This document shows positions 52,458 through 64,000 of a stretch of DNA of 64,000 bases, in pieces. This DNA comes from Bacteroidales bacterium (GTDB lineage: Bacteria; Bacteroidota; Bacteroidia; Bacteroidales; WCHB1-69), in NCBI GenBank assembly GCA_017615595.1, contig JAFZZT010000036.1, forward strand, positions 39,035-103,034, given 5' to 3'. The notes under the pieces were generated by a model. It was not told the origin of the DNA and made no database searches. It saw nothing but the letters and a program-made list of their open reading frames with translations. Both the position numbers and the translations under genes were made by a program. The first letter of the stretch is position 1; each line of letters begins with the position of its first letter.

Positions 52458-53765
52458 ATGAAAAAATCACTATTGTTTTTCGCTTGGATTCTTATCATAT
52501 TAGGTGTCTCGGCCCAAACGCCCAAGCCTTTGACTATCACCGAGAACACGCATTTTGTCGTCCTCCCCAACGACTGTGAGAGCATCTCATGGCTTGTGGA
52601 TGGCATCTGGTCGGTGGAGCGCTACAACAAGTATGCCTTCTACAACGTACAAGGCCAGCGCATTTTCGACTTCGAATGGGAAGCGGGGTCCGGTTACCGC
52701 GAACCCCTGATGGTCGGCGGCGCCGTCCTGATGTACAAGAAGGAAGAGGTCAACAGCCAGAAACCGATGTGGCTGCTTAAGAGCGACGGCACCTCCAAGG
52801 CGCTACCGGCGGAATATGTCGGACCCGCCACCAATTTTGTGGACGGCGTGGCGCTTATCGGGAAAAAGAAAAGTTCCGGTTATGGCATTGAATATGTCTA
52901 TATCAACCTTAACGGCCAGCGAGTCTATGGCACGCTGACCTCCAGTCCAGAACGCTTTGAGCGCACCAACTGGACGGTTCCACCTTTGCGCGAGGGGTTG
53001 AGAGCATTCAAGCAGCTGAACCCCAGCGGTTTTGGCGGCAAATGGGGTTATATTGACGCCAACGGCAAGGTGGTGATCCCCGCCCGCTACGACGAATGCC
53101 GTTCCTTCAGCGAAGGGTACGCCTTGGTACGGGAAGACCGCGAATTATACTTCATCGACAAAAACGGCAACAAGGCCATTGAGCCCATCTGGGATGACGA
53201 CACCTATTTCAACGACATCAGCGATGTTCACAACGGCTATTTCGTCGTGAACTACAACCCTCGCAAATACTTCAACACCCAGGGCGATCTAGTGAAAAAA
53301 CTACCGGGAGGATCCATGTTCTACAACGGCTATTGCTTTGCCGAGGATGAGACAGCGTTCAATGGGAAAAGCCGGGTGTTCGACAAGGATTTCAACCTCG
53401 TGAAAACCATCCCGGAGGTGGATCTTTGGTGGAACGACGAGGGCAACGCGCCCATCTTCACGGCGGCAGGAGTGGCGACCGTGCAACGGGAACGAGTGAT
53501 TTCCACAGACGGCACCACGCTGATCCAGCACTTCCCCGTGACGAAAAAATCGCCCAACCGGAATGGCATCGAATATTTCTCCCCGTCCGGGTTTGCCAAG
53601 GCCTGGCTCGTGCATAACGGCGAGACCTACGAAGGGTTCATCAACCTAGACGGCGAGTTCGTGCTCATCTACCGTTGGAACCGGGAGGTGGTCCCCATCG
53701 TGAACGACCCGAACAATCCTTCCCCCTGCGACACCTGCAAGATATTCCCCAATCCTGTCCGGTAA
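52458..53765 (+). CDS. WG-repeat (KWG) containing secreted protein
   Basis: Signal peptide. Repeated modules of type KWGYIDANGKVVIPARYDECRSFSEGYALV and YFIDKNGNKAIEPIWDD. Confidence 0.75.
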   Translation: MKKSLLFFAWILIILGVSAQTPKPLTITENTHFVVLPNDCESISWLVDGIWSVERYNKYAFYNVQGQRIFDFEWEAGSGYREPLMVGGAVLMYKKEEVNSQKPMWLLKSDGTSKALPAEYVGPATNFVDGVALIGKKKSSGYGIEYVYINLNGQRVYGTLTSSPERFERTNWTVPPLREGLRAFKQLNPSGFGGKWGYIDANGKVVIPARYDECRSFSEGYALVREDRELYFIDKNGNKAIEPIWDDDTYFNDISDVHNGYFVVNYNPRKYFNTQGDLVKKLPGGSMFYNGYCFAEDETAFNGKSRVFDKDFNLVKTIPEVDLWWNDEGNAPIFTAAGVATVQRERVISTDGTTLIQHFPVTKKSPNRNGIEYFSPSGFAKAWLVHNGETYEGFINLDGEFVLIYRWNREVVPIVNDPNNPSPCDTCKIFPNPVR

Positions 53766-53791
53766 TCAGCGAACAGGAATCAGTGAACAGG
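53764..53791. repeat. 2 x 14-bp tandem unit (AATCAGCGAACAGG AATCAGTGAACAGG)
   Basis: Read directly. Overlaps the WG-repeat gene stop and marks the left edge of the accessory island. Confidence 0.85.
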
Positions 53792-53816
53792 AAGCCTAAT
53801 ACGACGCCGCACGCCG

Positions 53817-54218
53817 TTAGATGTGCGGGGAAAAAGAAGGGCAGCGGGGCGATTTCATCCCCATGCCCGCGCCCGTGAGGTTCGCACTGCCCACGTAACA
53901 GACCGTCTGGTCGATAACGATGATCTTGAAATGCACCCTCGGGCACATCACCCGTTCCAGCATCTTAGCCAATCGCGGGTAGCGGTCGAAGTCGGCGCGG
54001 AAGTTCGGTCCCGGTTCCTTCGCATGGATAAGCCGCACCTCCACGCCCTTGCCGAGCAAGTCGGCCAGCACCCCGAGAAACGGTTTCTCGGTTTTCCCCT
54101 GCAGCACGTACAGGTCTTTGATGTCAGCCGTGCCGATCCACAGACTGCGCTTGGCCTTCATCGCAAGGTCAAGGACGGTGGTGTAGTGGGAGGTGTCGGT
54201 GATGAGGGTGGTGGGCAT
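53817..54218 (-). CDS. single-HKD (PLD-like) nuclease paralog A, with C-terminal about 45 aa replaced by an unrelated 8-aa tail (possibly a pseudogene)
   Basis: 119/125 aa identical to paralog B through ...HFKIIVIDQTVCYVGSANLTGAGMGMKSPR (HxKx4Dx6GSxN intact). It then diverges (CPSFSPHI*) exactly where the 427-bp DNA repeat ends. Confidence 0.7.
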   Translation of the reverse strand: MPTTLITDTSHYTTVLDLAMKAKRSLWIGTADIKDLYVLQGKTEKPFLGVLADLLGKGVEVRLIHAKEPGPNFRADFDRYPRLAKMLERVMCPRVHFKIIVIDQTVCYVGSANLTGAGMGMKSPRCPSFSPHI

Positions 54219-54270
54219 GGCGGTTAGGATTTATATGCGGCAAAAATAGTACATTTTCTGATTGGCTTAC
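53844..54270. repeat. 427-bp direct repeat, copy A (5' 3/4 of HKD gene plus its promoter)
   Basis: Aligns base-for-base without indels, with scattered substitutions, to 55791-56217. Offset 1947 bp. Confidence 0.9.
54241..54248 (-). promoter_or_regulatory. -7 promoter box (TATTTTTG) of HKD paralog A
   Basis: Complement of caaaaata within the repeated promoter segment ...CTATTTTTGCCGCATATAAATCC... Confidence 0.45.
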
Positions 54271-55517
54271 TGTAAACACCATCGATAGAAGGGAATCACA
54301 TGTATAACTCCTCCGTCAGAAAATTCATTCTCTTCAGTCTCGTCCAGTGTGATAATGGTGCCTTCACGCAGACCAAACACCTTCATGGCTGCCAGCAAGC
54401 CTTCTTCTTCCCGCTTTCTTGTCTCTGGATTCTTCAGAGAAACAGCAACTTGCAACGCTTGCTCGACAATTCCATTTTTCCGGATTATAAAGTCACACTC
54501 ATTACCATCATGAAAATAGTACGACTCCATCTCTCGTCTTCTCAATTCAACATATACTGCATTTTCAAGTTTCTTTCCGAGATTTTCGCTAAAAGTGAAT
54601 CCCACTTGCGACACCAAACCATTGTCAATGAAATAGGCTTTCCTAGGACTTTTGATCTGCTCGCCAACTTTGTAGTCGTATTTGGTTAACACGCCCACCA
54701 GATAACACTCCTCCAAATAGCCGATGTATGCATTTATTGTATCGGGACTCTTTATTTTAGTGGCTTTTGCGATAGATTGATAAGTGAATTTATGGGTGAA
54801 GTTGCTGGCCAAGAAGTATGCCACCTCCTTAATGGGCTTTTCCGAAGGCAGTTTATGCCTCACTACGATGTCGCGAAAGATGATGTCGTTGTATAGTTCT
54901 CGCAAGTAACGCGGATCTCCAGTACTCAAATATTGAGGAAATCCTCCCTCTTTCAGAAATCCCGATTGTAGATTTGTTAGCATTGCGCGTCCTTCGGTGG
55001 TGTAGAAGTCCTTTGGTTTTATGCCGAATCCTTTGATTGACATATATTCGGAGAGGGACATCGGATAAAGTTCCTGTGTCAGATGGCGTCCCGTCAGCAG
55101 TGTTCCCAACTCTTTGCTCAACATAAATGCATTACTTCCTGTGACATAGACCTTGTTGCCATGTTTGTGAAGTCGTTCCACGAATCGTTCCCATCCCGTA
55201 ATAAGTTGCGGCTCATCAAGATAGAATGTGTGTTGAACTCCAAAATCCTCCATAAAAACATCATATAGAAGCTGAAAATCTTCTACGGAAAAATGAATGA
55301 GGCGGTCATCGTCAAAACTCATGTAATAATCCTGTTCCGATTGTCTGGCTCTGATTTGCTGCATCAACACCGACTTTCCGCAACGTCTCACGCCTGAAAT
55401 CACCATTATTCCAGATGATGCTGGCCAGTTGACATCTACATTCCTTTCAACACCGAGATCTTGATATAGTTCTCGTTGCTCGTATAAGACTTGCCGTAAT
55501 AATTCCTTAGACACCAT
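54267..55517 (-). CDS. AAA-ATPase (AAA_14-type) with DUF4143 / PD-(D/E)XK-like C-terminal domain
   Basis: Walker A SGVRRCGKS and Walker B FYLDEPQ. The C-terminus ...VYVELRR...GNECDFIIRK has a restriction-endonuclease-like E-x-D...K pattern. It is markedly more AT-rich than its neighbours. The start is trimmed to the ATG at 55517 because the -7 box covers the listed TTG start. Confidence 0.8.
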   Translation of the reverse strand: MVSKELLRQVLYEQRELYQDLGVERNVDVNWPASSGIMVISGVRRCGKSVLMQQIRARQSEQDYYMSFDDDRLIHFSVEDFQLLYDVFMEDFGVQHTFYLDEPQLITGWERFVERLHKHGNKVYVTGSNAFMLSKELGTLLTGRHLTQELYPMSLSEYMSIKGFGIKPKDFYTTEGRAMLTNLQSGFLKEGGFPQYLSTGDPRYLRELYNDIIFRDIVVRHKLPSEKPIKEVAYFLASNFTHKFTYQSIAKATKIKSPDTINAYIGYLEECYLVGVLTKYDYKVGEQIKSPRKAYFIDNGLVSQVGFTFSENLGKKLENAVYVELRRREMESYYFHDGNECDFIIRKNGIVEQALQVAVSLKNPETRKREEEGLLAAMKVFGLREGTIITLDETEENEFSDGGVIHVIPFYRWCLQ

Positions 55518-55541
55518 ATCTTTGTATTTTATATTAGGCTG

Positions 55542-55549
55542 CAAAAATA
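55542..55549 (-). promoter_or_regulatory. -7 promoter box (TATTTTTG) for the ATPase gene
   Basis: Complement of caaaaata, 25 nt upstream of the ATG at 55517. Confidence 0.45.
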
Positions 55550-55559
55550 AAAAAAATCC

Positions 55560-55603
55560 ATATTGACAATCCTTATTTTTTTATAAAAATCAATATTGAC
55601 AAT
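55560..55603. promoter_or_regulatory. pair of direct repeats ATATTGACAAT spaced 33 bp, upstream of the ATPase promoter (candidate operator)
   Basis: An identical 11-mer occurs at 55560-55570 and 55593-55603. Confidence 0.35.
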
Positions 55604-55649
55604 ATAGATTGTATTTCTAACGGTGATTTCACAATCATCATTCCCTGAT

Positions 55650-56165
55650 TCACTCTATCGGGTCCGGGCACACGTTCCTTCGCTGGCACTGCGCGCACTC
55701 GCTTCCGCGCCACACCTTGTCGAACTCCTCGATGGCGGCGGCCACGATGGAGGGTTCGTCGGTGAGGATGCCGGCTTCGAAGTTGCGACGGCGGGGCGAC
55801 TTCATCCCCATGCCCGCTCCCGTGAGGTTCGCGCTGCCCACATAGCAAACGGTCTGGTCGATGACGATGATCTTGAAGTGCACTCGCGGGCACATCACCC
55901 GTTCCAGTAGTTTGGAGAGCCGCGGGTAGCGGTCGAAGTCGGCACGGAAGTTCGGTCCCGGTTCCTTCGCGTGGATCAGCCGCACCTCCACGCCCTTTCC
56001 GAGTAACTCCGCCAGCACCCCGAGGAACGGCTTCTCGGTACCGCCCTGCAGCACGTGCAGGTCCTTGATGTCGGCGGTGCCGATCCACAGCGAGTGCTTG
56101 GCCTTCATCGCGAGGTCAAGCACGGTGGTGTAGTGGGAGGTGTCGGTGATGAGGGTGGTGGGCAT
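55650..56165 (-). CDS. single-HKD (PLD-like) nuclease paralog B, full length (171 aa) with Cys-containing tail
   Basis: HKD motif HFKIIVIDQTVCYVGSANLTGAG. No signal peptide. The C-terminal tail ...FEAGILTDEPSIVAAAIEEFDKVWRGSECAQCQRRNVCPDPIE contains CxxCx5C. Confidence 0.8.
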   Translation of the reverse strand: MPTTLITDTSHYTTVLDLAMKAKHSLWIGTADIKDLHVLQGGTEKPFLGVLAELLGKGVEVRLIHAKEPGPNFRADFDRYPRLSKLLERVMCPRVHFKIIVIDQTVCYVGSANLTGAGMGMKSPRRRNFEAGILTDEPSIVAAAIEEFDKVWRGSECAQCQRRNVCPDPIE

Positions 56166-56217
56166 GGCGGTTAGGATTTATATGCGGCAAAAATAGTACA
56201 TTTTCTGATTGGCTTAC
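55791..56217. repeat. 427-bp direct repeat, copy B
   Basis: See 53844-54270. Confidence 0.9.
56188..56195 (-). promoter_or_regulatory. -7 promoter box (TATTTTTG) of HKD paralog B
   Basis: Same sequence context as 54241-54248. Confidence 0.45.
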
Positions 56218-56286: not shown

Positions 56287-56492
56287 GAACGAGTCACAAC
56301 GCGAGATGGCGCACATAACGAGCACTATCACCAATCAAAATGTTGATCTTGCGTTGAAAAATCAAGAAATCCGCGAAAACAATGGCAGTAATTAACAGTT
56401 AAACATTAATTTTTTTTGATAATTTTACAACTTATTGATTGTTAGAGCAAAAAAATAACACCAAAATCCTTGACACCAGCATTTTGTTATAG

Positions 56493-56500
56493 TATATTTG
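56493..56500 (+). promoter_or_regulatory. -7 promoter box (TATATTTG) for the ORF6N gene array
   Basis: TAnnTTTG match 45 nt upstream of the ATG at 56545. A TTGACA hexamer lies 17 nt upstream of TATATT. Confidence 0.45.
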
Positions 56501-56544
56501 TCGTTCAGTTAATAAAAAGTTTTTATTCATCAAAACAACACACT

Positions 56545-57168
56545 ATGACAAATATCTTAGAAGTTGAGAACAGAATGATCACCCTGCGTGGTCAGCAGGT
56601 GATTTTGGATTCAGACGTGGCCGAACTGTACGGGGTGGAAACGAAGCGCATTAATGAGGCCGTCAGCAACAATCCTGGAAAATTCCCCCAAGGGTATGTT
56701 TGGGAATTGGATAAAGCCGAAGTCCTGGCTTTAAGGTCGAAAATTTCGACCTTAAAGAAATCGGGTCGGGGACAACATTCAAAATACCCACCCAAAGCCT
56801 TTACCGAACGGGGGCTCTATATGCTGGCCACCATCTTGAAGAGTCCGAAAGCAGAGGAGACCACCATCGCCATCGTGGAGGCCTACGCGAAGTTAAGGGA
56901 ACTGTCGCGAGTGATGACGGAAATACCACAGCAGGAGGAGAACTCCGTGGAACAGAGAACATTGCTTCAGCGCGGCGGACAGTTGGTGGAGGACCTGATG
57001 ACAGACGTGCTGCCGGTCCAGAGCAGCGAGACCTCCATCGAACTCAACCTCGCAATGTTCAAACTCAAGCATTCCGTGAAGCGGGAGAACGAGGAGGAGG
57101 TGAAGAAACTGCGGGAGGAGATAGCAGAACTCAAACATATTATTAATCATCAAAATAACACACTATGA
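56545..57168 (+). CDS. ORF6N-domain (KilA-N-related DNA-binding) protein, array copy 1
   Basis: MTNILEVENRMITLRGQQVILDSDVAELYGVETKRINEAVSNNPGKFPQGYVWEL matches the ORF6N signature, with a coiled-coil acidic C-half. The true start is the ATG at 56545 (residue 26 of the listed ORF). Confidence 0.8.
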   Translation: MTNILEVENRMITLRGQQVILDSDVAELYGVETKRINEAVSNNPGKFPQGYVWELDKAEVLALRSKISTLKKSGRGQHSKYPPKAFTERGLYMLATILKSPKAEETTIAIVEAYAKLRELSRVMTEIPQQEENSVEQRTLLQRGGQLVEDLMTDVLPVQSSETSIELNLAMFKLKHSVKRENEEEVKKLREEIAELKHIINHQNNTL

Positions 57169-57779
57169 CTAATATCTTAGAAGTAGAAAACAGAATGATC
57201 ACCCTGCGAGGTCAGCAGGTGATTTTGGATTCAGACGTGGCCGAACTGTACGGGGTCCAAACCAAGGAAATCAACCAGGCAGTAAAAAACAACCCTGAGA
57301 AATTCCCAACAGGTTACATCTGGGAGTTGATTGGCGAAGAGAAAGACGAACTGGTCAAAAATTTTGACCGGTTCAACCGTCAGAAGCATTCAACGGTTAT
57401 GCCACAGGCTTTTACCGAGAAAGGACTCTATATGTTGGCCACTATCTTAAAAAGTGAAAAGGCTGTGGAGACCACCATCGCCATCGTGGAGGCCTACGCG
57501 AAGTTAAGGGAACTGTCGCGAGTGATGACGGAAATCCCACAGCAGGAAGAGAACTCCGTGGAACAGAAAACATTGCTTCAGCGCGGCGGACAGCTGGTGG
57601 AGGACCTGATGACAGACGTGCTGCCGGTCCAGAGCAGCGAGACCTCCATCGAACTCAACCTCGCGATGTTCAAACTCAAGCATTCCGTGAAGCGGGAGAA
57701 CGAGGAGGAGGTGAAGAAACTGCGGGAGGAGATAGCAGAACTCAAACATATTATTAATCATCAAAATAACACACTATGA
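57165..57779 (+). CDS. ORF6N-domain protein, array copy 2
   Basis: The start ATG overlaps the copy-1 stop (ATGA). The first 30 and last 100 aa or so are near-identical to copy 1 and the middle has diverged. Confidence 0.8.
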   Translation: MTNILEVENRMITLRGQQVILDSDVAELYGVQTKEINQAVKNNPEKFPTGYIWELIGEEKDELVKNFDRFNRQKHSTVMPQAFTEKGLYMLATILKSEKAVETTIAIVEAYAKLRELSRVMTEIPQQEENSVEQKTLLQRGGQLVEDLMTDVLPVQSSETSIELNLAMFKLKHSVKRENEEEVKKLREEIAELKHIINHQNNTL

Positions 57780-58063
57780 CAAATATTGTAGAAGTAGAAA
57801 ACAGAATGATCACCCTGCGAGGTCAGCAGGTGATTTTGGATTTAGACGTGGCCGAACTGTACGGAGTGGAAACACGCGACATCAACAAATCTGTGAAAAA
57901 CAATCCTGGTAAATTTCCAGAAGGATATATCATTGCTTTGGGATGTAGTGAGAAGAACGAACTGGTGGAAAATTTCCACCGGTTCAATCGACTAAAACAT
58001 TCCACCGTAATGCCCAAAGCCTTTACCGAGCGGGGGGGCTCTATATGCTGGCCACCTTCTTGA
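57776..58063 (+). pseudogene. ORF6N-domain gene, array copy 3, frameshifted and 3'-truncated
   Basis: ATGA overlap with copy 2 and a conserved N-terminus. The frame is lost at a G7 run (58032-58038; copy 1 has G5 at the same spot), and homology ends about 58060 at the convergent terminator. Confidence 0.75.
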
Positions 58064-58066
58064 AAT

Positions 58067-58094
58067 GTAGAGACGTTCCCGGGAAAGTCTCTAC
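58067..58094. terminator. hairpin between convergent ORF6N-3 remnant and exonuclease gene
   Basis: GTAGAGAC-gttcccgggaaa-GTCTCTAC: an 8-bp stem whose loop contains the palindrome TTCCCGGGAA. It includes the exonuclease stop codon. Confidence 0.5.
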
Positions 58095-58585
58095 AATAAT
58101 TGTAACGCAATCTTTGCACACGCCTCCGCGTCGGCGAGGGCGTGGTGGTGGTTCGTCATGGGACAGCCGCAGGCCGCCGCCACAGTGTGCAGCTGGTGGT
58201 TGGGCAACCGCCGCCCGAAACGTCTCCGCGAGGCACGGCACGTGCAAAGGAACTGATAGTCAGGATAGTCCATTTGATAGACCTGGAACACCGCTTTGAG
58301 ACAGCCCTCATCAAAGGGACTGTTGTGCGCCACCAAAGGCAAACCCTCGATTAAAGGCTCGATTTGCCGCCATACGTCGGGGAACACCGGCGCGTTGTCC
58401 GTGTCCTCGTGCGTGAGACCGTGTACCTCCTGACAGAACCAGGCGTAGTAGTCGGGTTCGGGCTTGATGAGCGAGTAGAACGTGTCGGTGATGAGGCCGT
58501 TACGCACGACTACCACCCCCACGCTGCACACGCTGCTACGCTGTCCGTTGGCGGTCTCGAAATCAATGGCGGCAAAATCGGTCAT
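58091..58585 (-). CDS. stand-alone DEDDh 3'-5' exonuclease (DnaQ/epsilon-like)
   Basis: ExoI AIDFETAN, ExoII AHNSPFDEGCL, ExoIII HHALADAEA. The start is set to the ATG at 58585 because the -7 box at 58609-58616 overlaps the listed TTG start. Confidence 0.8.
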   Translation of the reverse strand: MTDFAAIDFETANGQRSSVCSVGVVVVRNGLITDTFYSLIKPEPDYYAWFCQEVHGLTHEDTDNAPVFPDVWRQIEPLIEGLPLVAHNSPFDEGCLKAVFQVYQMDYPDYQFLCTCRASRRRFGRRLPNHQLHTVAAACGCPMTNHHHALADAEACAKIALQLL

Positions 58586-58605
58586 AGTTACACGTTTCAA
58601 ATCGG

Positions 58606-58631
58606 CGGCAAAGATAGCAAATAGGTGTGTA
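58606..58631 (-). promoter_or_regulatory. island promoter module (CACACCT-N7-GCTATCTTTGCCG) for exonuclease gene
   Basis: The minus strand reads CTTACACACCTATTTGCTATCTTTGCCGCC, with the -7 box at 58609-58616. Confidence 0.5.
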
Positions 58632-58682
58632 AGTTTCGGGCACAGAACAATAGTTCTGTTGAAACATTCGCAAACGGATAAT

Positions 58683-58967
58683 CACACTATCGGATCCGGG
58701 CACCCGTCCCAGCATCTTGGCCAGTCGCGGGTAGCGGTCGAAGTCGGCACGAAAATTCGGTCCCGGTTCCTTAGCGTGAATCAGCCGCGCCTCCACGCCC
58801 TTTCCGAGCAGTTCCGCCAATATCCCGAGGAATGGTTTCTCGGTTTTCCCCTGCAGCACGTAGAGGTCTTTGATGTCGGCGGTGCCAATCCACAGCGAGC
58901 GCTTGGCGCTCATGGCGAGGTCAAGGACGGTGGTGTAGTGGGAAGTGTCGGAGATAAACTGGAACAT
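58683..58967 (-). pseudogene. single-HKD (PLD-like) nuclease paralog C, internally deleted (HKD motif lost, frame shifted)
   Basis: The N-terminal 88 aa or so are homologous to A/B (SDTSHYTTVLDLAM...RADFDRYPRLAKML). Sequence then jumps directly to the last 17 nt or so of the paralog-B gene (ctatcggatccgggcac). The junction sits on a GGGCAC motif that occurs at both ends of the missing segment in B. Confidence 0.75.
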
Positions 58968-59181: not shown

Positions 59182-60312
59182 CTATCTCTCCAGCTCCTCG
59201 CACGCAGCGAGCACGTTCTCGCCAAGGGTTGTTGTGTCCGGGAGATGTATCTTTCGTAACTTTTTGCAGCCGCAGAAGGCCCAGTCACCAATGTGTGTGA
59301 CGGATTCGGGGATATGAATTTCCTCAAAGGATTCGCATTGATAAAACGCCCATTCGCCAATGCTGAGCAAAGAGTCGGAGAAGTGGAGACTTTGCAATTT
59401 CCGGCAACCTTTGAAGGCGCTCTCCCCGATATGGGTCACGGTGGCGGGCAGGATGACCTTCTGCAGCTGCGCACATCCTCCGAAAGCCCAGTCTCCGACC
59501 TCCTTCACGAATGCTGGCACCCCTACCTCCATCTCGTTGCCGAAATAAGATATCAAGCGGCCCGTCTGCTTGTCAATCAGCATATTGTTCATCACCACGA
59601 AGTTTGGCGAATGGTTTACAACACATACGTTGCAACATCGTAGGAATGGATTCACCCCAATGCGCTCCACCGTTTCCGGAATCGTCACTTCGCGCAACTT
59701 CTTGCACGAGGCGAAAGCCCTGTCTTCAATGTGCGTCACGGAATCGGGAATCTTGTACATCACAAGTGTGTCTTGACGGTCAGAGCCGGGCTTTGGCCCA
59801 GCAATTATCTCCGCCACTCGTCGGTCCATATCTTCCAAGAAGTCTATCAACGGCGTGTTGCCATCAGTATGGGCAATATCCTCCTGCATATCAATGACGT
59901 GTATGTCGTCCACGCCCAGAAAATGTTTGTCGGGCAAGTCATACAGTTTGGAATTAAGTTGAGGCGGTAAAATGTAGATAAGATGTCTCCTGATATTGGC
60001 GTGATGCGCCTTGCACCACACCAAATTCACCCCGATGGCCCCAAGTTGCAACTCCATGTTTGAGTATCCTTTCATATTTGGATTGGGATGTGGTTTGCGC
60101 ACCATATTCGATGGCGAGTCCCACACCAGGAGCCACACCTCCACAGGTGGGTTGTAGGGGCCGTCTTCAGCGCTGTAGAGATACTTTCTCACAAAAACCG
60201 CGCTCTCCATCCATTCGTATGTGTGTGACGAAGGCATTTGTTGCATAATGCCCTCTTTGCTTTGCGCAGCGTTGAAGCCTATCGGGATGATGATGTGTTT
60301 CGTTCTGTCCAT
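59182..60312 (-). CDS. cytoplasmic protein with unknown about 190-aa N-domain and BspA-type leucine-rich repeats
   Basis: The C-half has repeats of the type IPDSVTHIEDRAFASCKKLREVTIP, LPATVTHIGESAFKGCRKLQSL and IPESVTHIGDWAFCGCKKLRKI. No signal peptide. The start is set to the ATG at 60312 (MDRTKH...), downstream of the -7 box at 60338-60345. Confidence 0.7.
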   Translation of the reverse strand: MDRTKHIIIPIGFNAAQSKEGIMQQMPSSHTYEWMESAVFVRKYLYSAEDGPYNPPVEVWLLVWDSPSNMVRKPHPNPNMKGYSNMELQLGAIGVNLVWCKAHHANIRRHLIYILPPQLNSKLYDLPDKHFLGVDDIHVIDMQEDIAHTDGNTPLIDFLEDMDRRVAEIIAGPKPGSDRQDTLVMYKIPDSVTHIEDRAFASCKKLREVTIPETVERIGVNPFLRCCNVCVVNHSPNFVVMNNMLIDKQTGRLISYFGNEMEVGVPAFVKEVGDWAFGGCAQLQKVILPATVTHIGESAFKGCRKLQSLHFSDSLLSIGEWAFYQCESFEEIHIPESVTHIGDWAFCGCKKLRKIHLPDTTTLGENVLAACEELER

Positions 60313-60337
60313 TGTCTGGTTGTTTGAATTGTTGGGG

Positions 60338-60345
60338 CAAAGATA
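60338..60345 (-). promoter_or_regulatory. -7 promoter box (TATCTTTG) for LRR gene
   Basis: The minus strand reads GGTGTGTTATCTTTGCCCC, 26 nt upstream of the ATG at 60312. Confidence 0.45.
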
Positions 60346-60376
60346 ACACACCGTTGCGCCAAAACGTGGCACTGCA

Positions 60377-61012
60377 TCATTCCCCCGTCACCACCTCCAT
60401 GGTGATTTCCGTGCGGAAGTCCCGGACGAAGATGAAGTCCGTGAGGGCGAAGTGGGTGTGGTCGAAAAGATGGTGGAACGCGCTGATGAGGTGCAGGTCT
60501 TTGGTGAGTTCCGGGTCCAGTCCTTCGTTCCAGTTGGGCGGCGGACAAGTCATCCCGATGAAGTCGTCGAACGATTCGCGGAAGTCGCTGGGGAGAGTCA
60601 GCGTGGAGAGGGACACGCCGTCCTCGTACAGCGGATTGTAGCCGCTGTCGCGGAGCGCACACCACAGCTCGTCACGCGAGTCGTTTTGCAAGGGGTGCAG
60701 CGGGGGATAGTTGCCGCTGAGGTAGCATCGGGCGGTGACTTCCAGATGTTCGCCGTAGTCGCAGGAGAGCGTGTCGCGATAGATGCGGCGGGCGGTTTCG
60801 TACATTTCCGACAACGCCTCCCGCAGCGCTTCGTTGAAGGCGATGATGTCGGGGAGCAGATCTTGCTGGTGCATCAATGCCTGCCGGTTGAGGAGCACCT
60901 TGCGCAGCGTCAGCAGGTTTTGGTGCTCGGTGTAATCGATTTTTCCATCGTAATAGGTCTGGATGATTTCCTGTTCGATGCATTCAATTACATAATCGTC
61001 GTAATGGATCAT
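60377..61012 (-). CDS. hypothetical acidic protein (211 aa), no recognisable domain
   Basis: A clean ORF with codon usage like its neighbours, 45 nt downstream of the preceding gene with no promoter box between. Confidence 0.5.
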   Translation of the reverse strand: MIHYDDYVIECIEQEIIQTYYDGKIDYTEHQNLLTLRKVLLNRQALMHQQDLLPDIIAFNEALREALSEMYETARRIYRDTLSCDYGEHLEVTARCYLSGNYPPLHPLQNDSRDELWCALRDSGYNPLYEDGVSLSTLTLPSDFRESFDDFIGMTCPPPNWNEGLDPELTKDLHLISAFHHLFDHTHFALTDFIFVRDFRTEITMEVVTGE

Positions 61013-61525: not shown

Positions 61526-61577
61526 GAGCGTTCCGAATATTTTTGAAATTTTAGGAGTTGTATTCCGAATTTTTTAG

Positions 61578-61585
61578 TATTTTTG
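61578..61585 (+). promoter_or_regulatory. -7 promoter box (TATTTTTG) for second ATPase gene
   Basis: TAnnTTTG match 16 nt upstream of the ATG at 61601. It covers the listed TTG start at 61583. Confidence 0.45.
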
Positions 61586-61600
61586 CGCTCAAATTCTAAA

Positions 61601-62767
61601 ATGATGTTCAAAAGACTTTTAAACGAAAAGGCCCTTACATTAGATAGCACTTTCCTCTTCGGGGCAAGACAAACGGGCAAAACCACATTGCTGCTGGATT
61701 TGTTTCCAAATGCCCTGTTTTACGATTTATTGGAAAACAACACCTTCGAGCGCCTGCAGCGGAATCCGTCACTGCTGAGACAGGATTTGGAGATGTGCGA
61801 TTCATCCACTTTAGTGATTATCGACGAAGTGCAGTCGTTGCCTGTCCTTCTCAATGAGGTGCAGTGGCTTATGGTGCGAAAAGGCATCCGTTTCATTCTT
61901 AGCGGATCAAGTGCGCGCAAGCTCAAGCGTGGTGGCGCCAATATGCTCGGCGGCAGAGCAATGCAGACGAATCTTTACCCTCTTGTCAGTGCTGAAATAC
62001 CCGACTTTGATCTGATCAAGGCGGTTAACCAAGGCATGATACCCAGACATTATCTTGCTGACGCCGACCGATATTGGCAAATGTTGCAGGCATACGTTGC
62101 CGTATATTTGCGTGAGGAAATCAAAGCAGAAGCTTTGGTACGCAACATGTCCACATTCACTCGCTTTCTCGAGGCTGCGGCTTTAACTGACGGCGAGATG
62201 GTCAATTACAGCAATATAGCGCAGGATTGCGGCGTTGACTCGAAAACTGTTGCGGGCTATTTTTCCATCTTGGAAGAGACCCTGATCGGATATATGATTC
62301 CAGCATTTACCAAGGTGGTGAAACGTAAATTACGGCAAGCTCCACGCTTTTACTTTTTTGACGTCGCCATTCCCAACTATCTGCTTGGACGCCGAGCCCT
62401 GACTCCTGGTTCGGCGGATTTTGGCCACGCCTTCGAACATTTTGTTATTCAAGAGATTGTGGCTTACTTGGGCTATCATCGCATGCTTGAAGCGCTCTCG
62501 TATTGGCACACCTATTCTGATTATGAGGTGGATGCGGTTTTAGGCGATGCCGAAGTGGCTATTGAAATCAAATCAAACAGTGAGGTCCAATCACGACATC
62601 TGCGCGGACTGAAAGCCTTCAAAGAGGAGCATCCCCAATGTCGCCTGATAGCAGTCTCTCTTGACCCTATACCACGCCTGCTCAACGATGTAGAGATATG
62701 GCCGGTCAAGATTTTTCTTAAAAAATTGTGGGATAATGAAATCTATTCAACAGGAACGACACACTAA
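61601..62767 (+). CDS. AAA-ATPase with DUF4143 / PD-(D/E)XK-like C-terminal domain (second, divergent copy)
   Basis: Walker A GARQTGKTTLL and Walker B LVIIDEVQ. The C-terminus has YEVDAVLGDAEVAIEIKS (D...E-x-K). Confidence 0.8.
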   Translation: MMFKRLLNEKALTLDSTFLFGARQTGKTTLLLDLFPNALFYDLLENNTFERLQRNPSLLRQDLEMCDSSTLVIIDEVQSLPVLLNEVQWLMVRKGIRFILSGSSARKLKRGGANMLGGRAMQTNLYPLVSAEIPDFDLIKAVNQGMIPRHYLADADRYWQMLQAYVAVYLREEIKAEALVRNMSTFTRFLEAAALTDGEMVNYSNIAQDCGVDSKTVAGYFSILEETLIGYMIPAFTKVVKRKLRQAPRFYFFDVAIPNYLLGRRALTPGSADFGHAFEHFVIQEIVAYLGYHRMLEALSYWHTYSDYEVDAVLGDAEVAIEIKSNSEVQSRHLRGLKAFKEEHPQCRLIAVSLDPIPRLLNDVEIWPVKIFLKKLWDNEIYSTGTTH

Positions 62768-62946: not shown

Positions 62947-64000
62947 CTATTCGGCAGCCTTGAAATTGAATACCGGCTTGATGACATTCTCCACCCGCAC
63001 GGTATCCTGAATATTGTTAAGAATCTCATCCATAGATTTATACGCCATCGGCGCTTCATCAAGGGTATCGCTGGTTACGGTTTCGCTATAGATGCCTTCC
63101 ATTGCGCTTTTGAAATCTTCTATCCGCAGTTCCTTGAACGCCTTCGCCCGGCTCATCACGCGCCCGGCCCCGTGCGGTGCGGAGCAGTTCCAGTCCTCGT
63201 TGCCCTTGCCGATGCAGATGAGCGAGCCGTCGCGCATGTTGAGCGGAATAATGCACCGCTCGCCTTCTTGGGCCGAGATGGCCCCTTTCCGGATCAGGTT
63301 GTCGTCGCTGATATAGTTGTGGACACTTTCAAAAGCGCCGTCGGCAATTCCGTTTATGAAAAGGTTTTCTGTGAGGAAATCTGTAATCAGGTCGGCAATA
63401 AGCCGGCGGTTGAGGCGTGCCCAGCGCTGGCAAAGCCGCATGTCGTGCAGGTACTCATTGCGCGGATCGCCCGCCAGATAACAGAGATCGGGCGGCACGG
63501 GCGGGGACTGCATCTTGAAATCGGAATGCAATTTGGCGATAACGGCCTGTATCTCCTTTCTCCTCCCCTGACTTTTGTATTCCTCAATGATTCGTTTTTG
63601 CTGTTCCACCACCTTGTCCCATCCTGAAAGCAGTTTCCGCGCCTCCTTTTGGTACAGGTCGGCCACCTGCTTGCCCAAGTTCCGACTTCCCGTGTGAATC
63701 ACCAGATACCATTTTCCCTGTTCATCGCGGTCGAGTTCAATGAAATGGTTGCCACCGCCCAACGAGCCGATGGATTTGTCCAAACGCTTGCTCTCCTTGA
63801 GAAGCCGGTAGCAGTACAACTCACGGATGATGCTTTTGGCTTCGGAATAGACCTCCATATACTTTTGGGGCAACGGCTGATATTGGTCGCTGCGGAAGTC
63901 GCGCCCCGACGGTATGGCTTTTAGGATAAATGTGTTGAGTGCGTGGAAATCAATTGCGTCCGGCACATCGAGCGGTTGCACGAGGATACCGCAGCCGATG
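62947..64000 (-). CDS. rtcB: RNA ligase RtcB family protein, N-terminus beyond right window edge
   Basis: GGGNHFIELD, HTGSRNLG and APHGAGR motifs. The frame remains open to the window end (...IGCGILVQPLD), so the listed GTG start is internal. Confidence 0.85.
   Translation of the reverse strand, partial: IGCGILVQPLDVPDAIDFHALNTFILKAIPSGRDFRSDQYQPLPQKYMEVYSEAKSIIRELYCYRLLKESKRLDKSIGSLGGGNHFIELDRDEQGKWYLVIHTGSRNLGKQVADLYQKEARKLLSGWDKVVEQQKRIIEEYKSQGRRKEIQAVIAKLHSDFKMQSPPVPPDLCYLAGDPRNEYLHDMRLCQRWARLNRRLIADLITDFLTENLFINGIADGAFESVHNYISDDNLIRKGAISAQEGERCIIPLNMRDGSLICIGKGNEDWNCSAPHGAGRVMSRAKAFKELRIEDFKSAMEGIYSETVTSDTLDEAPMAYKSMDEILNNIQDTVRVENVIKPVFNFKAAE

What the first reader, a model, noticed from the sequence alone, without database searches (positions are those of the whole stretch)
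53844..56217. 427-bp direct repeat duplicates the HKD gene 5' part plus promoter around an AT-rich ATPase gene
Segments 53844-54270 and 55791-56217 align without indels, with only scattered substitutions (6 aa changes in 125 codons). Each holds the promoter and first 125 codons of the HKD gene. Only copy B continues into the native Cys-containing C-terminus. Copy A switches to unrelated sequence exactly at the repeat edge. Between the repeats lie the low-GC AAA/DUF4143 gene and the 3' end of copy B. This is the footprint of homologous (Campbell-type or unequal) recombination through the HKD gene. It suggests the HKD gene acts as a recombination landing pad where partner genes are exchanged. 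The repeat can also loop out the ATPase cassette as a 1947-bp circle.
Basis: seen in the sequence. Interest (0 to 1): 0.65.

Follow-up and report, generated by a model that had tools for sequence, protein, structure and literature searches.

The report
Decaying nuclease-gene copies in a defence island
The 427-bp repeat is real, but it is the shared front half of two old, diverged copies (one intact, one broken) of a small nuclease gene that recurs three times in a fast-changing anti-phage gene island of a rumen Bacteroidales bacterium, not the scar of a recent insertion.

Summary
Segments 53844-54270 and 55791-56217 align without indels, with 42 differences, 6 amino-acid changes and 1947-bp spacing. 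The junctions hold in four independent assemblies and in exact unitigs.

All three lie on the minus strand in a defence-type island next to a WG-repeat gene. B is intact. A has lost its 3' end. C has an internal out-of-frame deletion.

The copies are old: dS is about 0.46 and dN/dS about 0.1. Each is as far from the others as from HKD genes of other species.

Sister lineages carry different deletions of the copy downstream of the ATPase. One shares the window's truncation junction. So A is a decaying redundant paralogue, not a fresh crossover product.

Some evidence does favour recombination through HKD:
- A 96-nt tract is identical between A and B (P about 5e-4).
- The ATPase allele differs from that of sister lineages (75% nt) while flanks are 88-93%.
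- Part of the ATPase is 100% identical in another genetic background.
- A single-copy WG|HKD state exists in relatives.
- 15 of 79 HKD loci from other genomes carry a second HKD copy or fragment within 10 kb.

No excision product was seen, and fragment ends are scattered.

The parts
52458..53765 (+). WG_beta_rep gene, the conserved left flank of the variable island
   Evidence: Pfam PF14903. It is 92-96% conserved in relatives whose downstream content differs completely.
53766..53843 (.). Spacer between the WG gene and HKD-A'. It contains part of the 14-nt tandem repeat (53764-53793, which starts 2 nt inside the WG stop), the hairpin at 53807-53828 and about 27 nt of junction filler.
   Evidence: Homology to L020 resumes at 53816. 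The junction is shared with L094 and L115.
53817..54218 (-). HKD-A', a 3'-truncated pseudogene. It has codons 1-125 (53844-54218) plus 8 junk codons. The HKD motif is kept but the last 46 residues are lost.
   Evidence: Pfam PLDc_2 matches only profile positions 3-105 of 132. Translation.
53844..54270 (-). Repeat copy A (427 nt)
54175..54270 (-). 96-nt tract identical to 56122-56217 (promoter plus first 15 codons). Interpreted as a gene-conversion tract.
54267..55544 (-). AAA_14/DUF4143 ATPase (PADLOC candidate PDC-S01). The likely start is the ATG at 55517, giving 416 aa. GC is 42%.
   Evidence: Pfam; PADLOC 3.9e-104; homologues are 416 aa
55542..55603 (-). ATPase promoter region: a -7 box TATTTTTG (55542-55549) and two 19-nt direct repeats spaced 33 nt apart
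   Evidence: Similar repeat pairs lie upstream of other AAA_14/DUF4143 genes.
55650..56165 (-). HKD-B, the intact 171-aa PLD/HKD-family nuclease gene
   Evidence: Pfam PLDc_2 1.6e-15 and PLDc 8.8e-9. More than 8000 homologues, the best 120 at 80% aa identity or more.
55791..56217 (-). Repeat copy B (427 nt)
56470..58063 (+). Three tandem ORF6N genes (PDC-S05) with a 611-nt unit. The third is cut to 95 aa.
58091..58600 (-). DEDDh (RNase_T) 3'-5' exonuclease, the usual companion of HKD in Bacteroidales
58563..58967 (-). HKD-C', a pseudogene with an internal deletion. Codons 1-89 (58701-58967) are joined out of frame to the last 19 nt of the gene (58682-58700). The HKD motif is lost.
   Evidence: No Pfam hit.
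59182..61012 (-). LRR_5 (BspA-type) gene and a 211-aa gene of unknown function. Both are island modules that recur in relatives.
61583..62767 (+). Second AAA_14/DUF4143 (PDC-S01) ATPase

Best explanation
The repeat is the shared 5' part of two of three old paralogous or xenologous copies of a small, highly conserved PLD/HKD nuclease gene. This gene is a standard resident of a hypervariable defence island in rumen and gut Bacteroidales.

In the gene's direction (minus strand) the island reads: 211-aa gene, LRR, HKD-C', DEDDh exonuclease, ORF6N x3 (opposite strand), HKD-B, PDC-S01 ATPase, HKD-A', then the WG gene.

Shown:
- B is intact. A lost its 3' end and C lost an internal segment, both by deletion.
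- The copies diverged under purifying selection long before they broke.
- The ancestor of this and sister lineages already had HKD-ATPase-HKD next to the WG gene.
- The downstream copy has since been eroded by different deletions in different lineages.
- A and B have exchanged a 96-nt tract.
- The ATPase between them is a different allele from that of sister lineages and also occurs in other backgrounds.

Inferred:
- The island grows when DNA from related bacteria, which carries its own HKD copy, recombines through HKD or other shared island genes and is added rather than substituted.
- Redundant HKD copies then decay.
- The HKD copies that flank a gene let that gene be swapped by ordinary RecA-type double crossover.
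- A reciprocal crossover in the identical tract could delete the 1947-bp unit, but nothing suggests this is frequent or programmed.
For: The anatomy, the three copies and the nature of the two lesions come. Copy C keeps the native last 19 nt, CCCGGATCCGATAGTGTGA.

Divergence: A-B dS 0.46 with dN/dS 0.095; A-C dN/dS 0.11; B-C dN/dS 0.17. A, B and C are 86-88% nt to each other and 80-91% to HKD genes of eleven other loci. Copies within one locus in other genomes are 60-91% identical.

Independent erosion of the copy downstream of the ATPase:
- The window keeps codons 1-125.
- L094 and L115 keep only codons 119-125, with the same junction as the window.
- L020 keeps codons 148-170.
- X6 keeps codons 1-19 and 133-171.

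State next to the WG gene in other relatives:
- L101-L103 carry a full single copy there.
- L095-L098 carry a 3' relic (codons 108-170) followed by a type I restriction-modification system.

Gene conversion.

ATPase allele replacement and spread.

Defence-island context:
- PDC-S01, PDC-S05 and a second PDC-S01 in the window.
- GmrSD, McrBC, WYL, PD-(D/E)XK and type I restriction-modification genes in relatives.
- HKD neighbours fall into 52 clusters among 74 downstream genes and 40 among 81 upstream genes.

PDC systems are untested candidates found by 'guilt by embedding' (bioRxiv 10.1101/2024.01.29.577857). PDC-S01 is the most frequent single defence locus in rumen genomes (PMC13356809).
Against: The origin of the extra copies cannot be decided. 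HKD identities form a saturated, star-like cloud of 80-94%, so import from other lineages and ancient in-situ duplication remain equally open. No recombination breakpoint that created a copy has been mapped. Truncated copies show illegitimate ends rather than homologous ones. Loci were collected by the presence of HKD, which inflates the apparent role of HKD. Some comparison sequences are short metagenomic contigs or unitigs from mixed communities. L005 has a 100-N scaffold gap and was discarded.
Confidence: 0.6

Rival explanations
1. A circular or unequal-crossover (Campbell-type) event through the HKD gene recently inserted the ATPase cassette and created the duplication. The 1947-bp unit remains an excisable cassette, with HKD serving as its dedicated landing pad.
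For: Direct repeats bracket a low-GC gene. A 96-nt perfectly identical tract is long enough for RecA crossover. The ATPase allele occurs in other backgrounds. In L105 and L106 a related ATPase cassette is also bracketed by direct repeats (59 nt, spacing 1430), just downstream of a 7-codon HKD relic. The pattern '5' fragment - ATPase - full HKD' in L016, L018 and L024 is what a circle carrying a 5' HKD piece would produce.
Against: The repeats are 10% diverged, with dS 0.46. The order here (full copy, ATPase, truncated copy) requires that the target was already truncated. The truncation junction is older than the split from L094 and L115, which carry a different ATPase allele. Fragment ends fall at codons 13, 19, 22, 31, 32, 89, 93, 125 and 139, and fragments start at codons 108, 113, 117, 119, 128, 133, 148 and 165. 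That spread means no defined site. No recombinase gene was found in the island. The arrangement is fixed in L001-L004.
Confidence: 0.08
2. An ancient in-situ tandem duplication of an HKD (or HKD-ATPase) unit arose by unequal crossing-over in an ancestor. The copies then diverged and decayed. No imported DNA is needed to explain them.
For: The HKD-ATPase-HKD arrangement predates the split of the window, L020 and L115 lineages. Tandem HKD-X-HKD arrays are widespread.
Against: A and B are not each other's closest relatives among sampled HKD genes: A is 91.1% to L017 and 88.3% to B. Copies within one locus in other genomes each have closer relatives in other genomes. The ATPase allele was clearly exchanged. 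The signal is weak, however, because synonymous sites are near saturation.
Confidence: 0.2
3. HKD and its neighbour form a two-gene defence module, with the nuclease as effector and the ATPase or exonuclease as partner. Repeated HKD genes would then reflect several such modules kept by selection, not recombination scaffolding.
For: AAA_14/DUF4143 or related ATPases sit next to HKD or HKD relics in the window, L006, L015, L016, L018, L020, L023, L024, L095, L105 and L115. AAA_14 occupies 10 of 155 neighbour slots. PLD nucleases act in DISARM and Mokosh (weak hits).
Against: The neighbours are extremely diverse, with 52 and 40 clusters. HKD has its own promoter. HKD is far more conserved than typical defence effectors. 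Two of the three copies here are dead while their neighbours are intact. PDC-S01 is catalogued as a single-gene candidate.
Confidence: 0.1
4. The duplication is an assembly artefact.
For: The source is a metagenome, and HKD is a multi-species repeat with very high local unitig depth.
Against: Four independent contigs from two pipelines agree. Exact unitigs span three of the four repeat edges at depths matching the unique parts, 8-13x. The copies differ at 42 sites, so they cannot be a collapsed or duplicated read set.
Confidence: 0.01

Closest known systems
Defence islands and defence hot spots bounded by conserved genes (described for E. coli and Pseudomonas aeruginosa pan-genomes; named from my own knowledge, no paper was read for this)
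   Same: A fixed chromosomal position next to a conserved gene (WG) holds completely different sets of restriction and candidate defence genes in close relatives. Content turns over by recombination.
   Different: The conserved island gene (HKD) is not only a flank. It recurs inside the island as several diverged copies and relics that bracket individual genes.
Insertion-duplication by single-crossover (Campbell) integration, and excision between direct repeats
   Same: Direct repeats of part of a gene flank an inserted unit. One copy is truncated. Excision by crossover between the repeats is possible in principle.
   Different: The repeats are 10% diverged and old. The truncated copy's junction is shared with lineages that carry another ATPase allele. 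No circular or deleted form was seen.
PADLOC phage-defence candidates PDC-S01 (AAA_14/DUF4143) and PDC-S05 (ORF6N), Payne et al., bioRxiv 10.1101/2024.01.29.577857
   Same: The ATPase matches PDC-S01 at 3.9e-104 and ORF6N matches PDC-S05 at 5.9e-77. PDC genes were defined by being embedded among other defence genes, as these are here.
   Different: They are untested candidates. Nothing in that work concerns flanking HKD repeats.
PLD/HKD-family nucleases (Nuc/NucT, DISARM DrmC, the Mokosh MkoB nuclease domain, PLD3 exonuclease)
   Same: HKD-B has a single HKD motif in a protein of about 170 aa, like Nuc. It gives weak profile hits to DrmC, MkoB and DpdK and to PLD3.
   Different: All scores are far below family cut-offs: DrmC scores 46.8 against a cut-off of 133. 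No DISARM or Mokosh partner genes are present. HKD-B has a C-terminal Cys cluster. Its conservation across Bacteroidales is unusually high.
Displaced 'orphan' 3' ends in Rhs/CdiA toxin loci
   Same: A conserved 5' part is repeated with different 3' continuations.
   Different: Here the alternative 3' ends are 8 junk codons and a frameshifted relic. They are not alternative domains.

Membership tests
PLD/HKD superfamily (Pfam PLDc_2 PF13091, PLDc PF00614) | HxK(x)4D(x)6GSxN motif within a PLD-like domain that scores above the gathering threshold | tested here: met
   B scores PLDc_2 57.5 bits (cut-off 27) and PLDc 35.5 (cut-off 21.9). A scores 43.5 and 36.2, but its domain is cut at profile position 105 of 132. 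C has no hit and its motif is deleted.
DISARM DrmC | Score above the NCBIfam equivalog cut-off, with DrmA, DrmB and methylase genes as neighbours | tested here: not met
   NF038319 scores 46.8 bits against a cut-off of 133. No DISARM genes are among the island ORFs.
PADLOC PDC-S01 (candidate single-gene defence ATPase) | Full-length match to the PDC-S01 profile, with the AAA_14 + DUF4143 architecture | tested here: met
   PDLC04787 at 3.9e-104 covers residues 42-424. Pfam finds AAA_14 + DUF4143. The defence function itself is untested anywhere.
Campbell-type insertion duplication / excisable cassette | Near-identical direct repeats produced by a recent single crossover | tested here: not met
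   Identity is 90.2% and dS is 0.46. Only a 96-nt tract is identical.
Campbell-type insertion duplication / excisable cassette | An empty (single-copy) site exists in relatives | tested here: met
   L101-L103 have the WG gene followed by one full HKD. That HKD is only 86-88% nt to A and B, and the rest of the island differs.
Campbell-type insertion duplication / excisable cassette | A precise deletion or circular form is present in the population | not testable with these tools
   Only Logan unitigs were available, and they are shorter than the 427-nt repeat. No joint of 1947 nt was seen.
Integron-like or site-specific cassette system | A recombinase gene and a conserved attachment site at cassette borders | tested here: not met
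   No integrase or transposase domain appears in island ORFs of 140 aa or more between 52.4 and 64 kb. HKD fragment ends are scattered.
Defence island / hot spot | The same chromosomal position holds different defence gene sets in close relatives | tested here: met
   Downstream of the WG gene: the window array; PD-(D/E)XK/PHP/RtcB/AAA in L101; a type I restriction-modification system with AAA_14/DUF4143 in L095.

The most novel reading that the evidence does not exclude
In Bacteroidales, the small conserved HKD nuclease gene serves as a repeated internal homology anchor of a defence island. Genes such as the PDC-S01 ATPase travel between species as units bracketed by HKD sequence. They are inserted, replaced or lost by homologous recombination between HKD copies. 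Under this reading the 427-bp repeat is one working instance of an integrase-free cassette-exchange system. A bolder version holds that the nuclease itself stimulates these events by cutting near its own gene.
Probability: 0.25. Interest if true: 0.65.

Novelty: new member of a known kind. Interest (0 to 1): 0.38.

Why it matters
How defence genes come to be embedded next to or inside other defence loci is an open question. The PDC candidates were defined by that embedding. This locus gives a concrete case that comparative data can trace. One very conserved gene recurs as copies and relics around exchangeable genes. There is direct evidence for conversion between copies and for allele replacement between them. 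If the pattern holds in complete genomes, HKD copies could be used to locate defence cargo in Bacteroidales. They could also explain rapid turnover without dedicated recombinases. The 427-bp repeat on its own is an ordinary pseudogene relic.

Tried and rejected
- L005 appeared to show an intact second HKD copy after the ATPase. That copy lies behind a 100-N scaffold gap and is only 88% nt to A, so it was discarded as unreliable.
- I tried to assign A, B and C to donors or positional orthologues by nucleotide identity. All values fall in a star-like 80-94% cloud and are uninformative.
- I looked for a fixed functional partner of HKD. The neighbours are too diverse.
- I looked for the L105 59-nt flanking repeat or hairpin in the window. 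It is absent.
- No tRNA gene lies near the island.
- No additional tandem structure is present beyond the ORF6N array and a 14-nt repeat.
- Literature searches for an HKD/PLD anchor in Bacteroidales defence islands, and for a DUF4143 function, found nothing specific.
- Unitig data cannot detect deletion or circle forms because the repeat is longer than the unitigs.
- A PDB sequence search gave only a weak PLD3 match.
Full report
**Observation**

The repeat is exactly as described. Segments 53844-54270 and 55791-56217 align over 427 nt without indels. They have 42 substitutions (90.2% identity) and a spacing of 1947 bp. Thirty-two of the 42 substitutions fall at third codon positions. The 125 shared codons differ at 6 residues.

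Both copies are on the minus strand. Each includes 52 nt upstream of the ATG with a Bacteroidetes-type -7 box TAnnTTTG. Copy B (55650-56165) is a complete 171-aa PLD/HKD protein. Copy A (53817-54218) reads 8 unrelated codons after codon 125 and stops.

Between the copies lies an AAA_14/DUF4143 ATPase gene of 42% GC. HKD-B has 64% GC.

The arrangement is not an assembly artefact. Four contigs from independent samples and two assembly pipelines are collinear with the window at 99.6-99.97%. Exact unitigs from runs X1 and X2 span the A truncation junction, the ATPase-stop/repeat edge and the B upstream edge. Their depths equal those of the unique sequence.

There is a third HKD copy, C (ORF 58563-58967). 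It is not simply truncated. Codons 1-89 are joined out of frame to the last 19 nt of the gene (CCCGGATCCGATAGTGTGA). This removes the HKD motif. It is followed by its usual neighbour, a DEDDh (RNase_T) exonuclease.

Read in the direction of these genes, the region is: 211-aa gene, LRR_5 gene, HKD-C', exonuclease, three tandem ORF6N genes on the other strand, HKD-B, ATPase, HKD-A', then the convergent WG-repeat gene.

PADLOC profiles identify three candidate defence genes:
- the ATPase as candidate PDC-S01 (3.9e-104);
- ORF6N as PDC-S05 (5.9e-77);
- a second PDC-S01 at 61583-62767.

These PDC families are untested candidates, defined by being embedded among defence genes (bioRxiv 10.1101/2024.01.29.577857). 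PDC-S01 is the commonest single defence locus in rumen genomes (PMC13356809).

**Age of the copies**

A versus B gives dS 0.46 and dN/dS 0.095. A-C and B-C are similar. So the copies diverged as functional genes for a long time, and the two lesions are recent by comparison.

A, B and C are 86-88% identical to each other. They are 80-91% identical to HKD genes of eleven other loci. In other genomes with two copies in one locus, the copies are 60-91% identical, and each has closer relatives elsewhere. This excludes a recent duplication.

**The locus in relatives**

The WG gene is a stable flank. What follows it varies completely among bacteria whose WG genes are 92-96% identical:
- L101-L103 have one full HKD gene 52 nt after the WG gene, then PD-(D/E)XK, PHP, RtcB and AAA genes.
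- L095-L098 have a 3' HKD relic (codons 108-170), then YgjP, AAA_14/DUF4143 and a type I restriction-modification system.
- L020, a sister species, has HKD(full) - ATPase(codons 127-424) - HKD relic(codons 148-170) - WG.
- L094 and L115 have HKD(full) - the same truncated ATPase allele - only codons 119-125 of HKD - the same filler and junction as the window - WG.
- A contig in run X6 has the window's ATPase allele followed by the promoter and an HKD lacking codons 20-132, located upstream of the LRR gene.

The simplest reading is that an ancestor already had HKD-ATPase-HKD next to the WG gene. The downstream copy has since been eroded by at least four different deletions. Copy A is therefore a decaying redundant gene. 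Its edge at codon 125 is a deletion junction older than the split from L094 and L115.

**Evidence that recombination does run through HKD**

- The first 96 nt of the repeat (52 nt of promoter plus 15 codons) are identical, against 12.7% divergence elsewhere. In 200,000 permutations the probability of such a run is 4.5e-4 anywhere in the repeat and 3.5e-5 at an end.
- This tract is not simply conserved. In X6 and X21, which carry the same ATPase allele, the corresponding promoter differs from the window at 7-9 of 52 positions. Promoters of the same type in L012 and L015 also differ. This indicates B-to-A gene conversion in the window lineage.
- The ATPase has been exchanged. It is 75-76% nt to the ATPase of L020, L094 and L115, which are 89% to each other. 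The flanking HKD and WG sequences are 88-93%.
- The ATPase unit shares 40-53% of its 31-mers with many runs that share only 9-16% of the whole 5.7-kb region.
- In X6, 589 nt of the ATPase (54888-55476) are 100% identical while the WG gene is 93%.

**Generality**

A scan of one genome per species found 79 HKD loci. Fifteen of them have a second HKD copy or relic within 10 kb:
- full-cargo-full: L023, L026, L027, L033, L041, L071, L080;
- 5' relic-cargo-full: L016, L018, L024;
- full-cargo-3' relic: L020, L079, L083, L090;
- L031 has a second copy cut by the contig edge.

The cargo includes AAA_14/DUF4143 and related ATPases, a KaiC-like pair and others.

Genes next to HKD are very diverse: 52 clusters among 74 downstream genes and 40 among 81 upstream genes. 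They are rich in GmrSD, McrBC, WYL regulators and AAA_14. The DEDDh exonuclease is either adjacent to HKD or 2-8 kb upstream with variable genes between them.

Relic ends are scattered across the gene, so there is no defined site. No recombinase gene is present in the island.

**Mechanism**

Shown:
- there are three old copies, two of them broken by deletion;
- the tandem arrangement is ancestral;
- erosion of the downstream copy has been lineage-specific;
- conversion has occurred between A and B;
- the ATPase allele has been replaced.

Inferred:
- the island gains modules from related bacteria by recombination anchored in shared island genes, of which HKD is the most conserved;
- redundant HKD copies then decay;
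- HKD copies that flank a gene allow that gene to be swapped by double crossover.

A reciprocal crossover in the 96-nt tract could remove the 1947-bp unit. All same-species contigs keep the unit, and the available data (unitigs shorter than the repeat) cannot detect rare variants.

**Comparison and verdict**

This is a defence island or hot spot with gene turnover. Its particular feature is that a conserved resident gene recurs inside it.

It fails the tests for a recent Campbell insertion, because the repeats are diverged and the junction is old. It also fails the tests for an integron-like system, because there is no recombinase and no site. HKD-B belongs to the PLD/HKD superfamily but is not DrmC (46.8 bits against a cut-off of 133).

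HKD sequences do take part in recombination and partner exchange. The repeat itself, however, is a relic of an old array, not the footprint of a recent or active insertion.

The origin of the extra copies (import or ancient duplication) remains open.

Interest is moderate. The repeat is ordinary. The recurring HKD-bracketed cargo is worth a systematic test.

Noticed in passing
window 58563-58967: A third HKD copy, C'. Codons 1-89 are joined out of frame to the last 19 nt of the gene. It lies directly upstream of the DEDDh exonuclease, whose start it overlaps.
   Followed up: yes
window 56470-58063: Three tandem ORF6N genes (PADLOC PDC-S05) with a 611-nt unit and 76-93% identity between units. 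The third is cut to 95 aa. Metagenome contigs often break inside this array.
   Followed up: partly
window 55552-55603 and 61531-61584; L105 578-636; L109 2206-2262; L006 9798-9853: AAA_14/DUF4143 genes share a promoter layout. Two direct repeats of about 19-26 nt, spaced 32-33 nt apart, lie just upstream of a TAnnTTTG box. They look like operators and nothing so far explains them.
   Followed up: partly
L105 487-545 and 1917-1975; L106 401-459 and 1831-1889; L104 6862-6893 and 8303-8334: In other genomes a close relative of the ATPase (86-91% aa) is bracketed by direct repeats of 59 nt (32 nt in L104), spaced 1430-1441 nt apart, next to or containing the hairpin CCGCG-TTTCC-CGCGG. In L105 a 7-codon relic of the HKD start (ATGCCCACCACTCTCATCACC) lies about 25 nt upstream of the left repeat. 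The motif is absent from the window.
   Followed up: partly
window 53764-53828: A 14-nt tandem repeat (AATCAGCGAACAGG x2.1) starts right at the WG stop codon. A GC hairpin follows at 53807-53828, between the convergent WG and HKD-A' genes. The repeat number differs in L094.
   Followed up: no
window 61583-62767 and 62947-63981: A second PDC-S01 ATPase and an RtcB-family RNA ligase gene running into the window end. The same modules occur in a different order in L101 and L006, and L006 has two copies each of the 211-aa gene and the exonuclease.
   Followed up: partly
L005 2696-2795: This scaffold has a 100-N gap exactly after the ATG of the second HKD copy. The HKD sequence beyond the gap is full length but only 88% nt to A. 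It is probably a scaffolding join to another strain.
   Followed up: yes
L032 4841-12625 (Prevotella ihumii): A cultured relative shows the frame WYL/WCX regulator - DEDDh exonuclease - two GmrSD-like genes - HKD - 158-aa gene - AAA ATPase, flanked by transposase remnants. It would be a convenient isolate for experiments.
   Followed up: no
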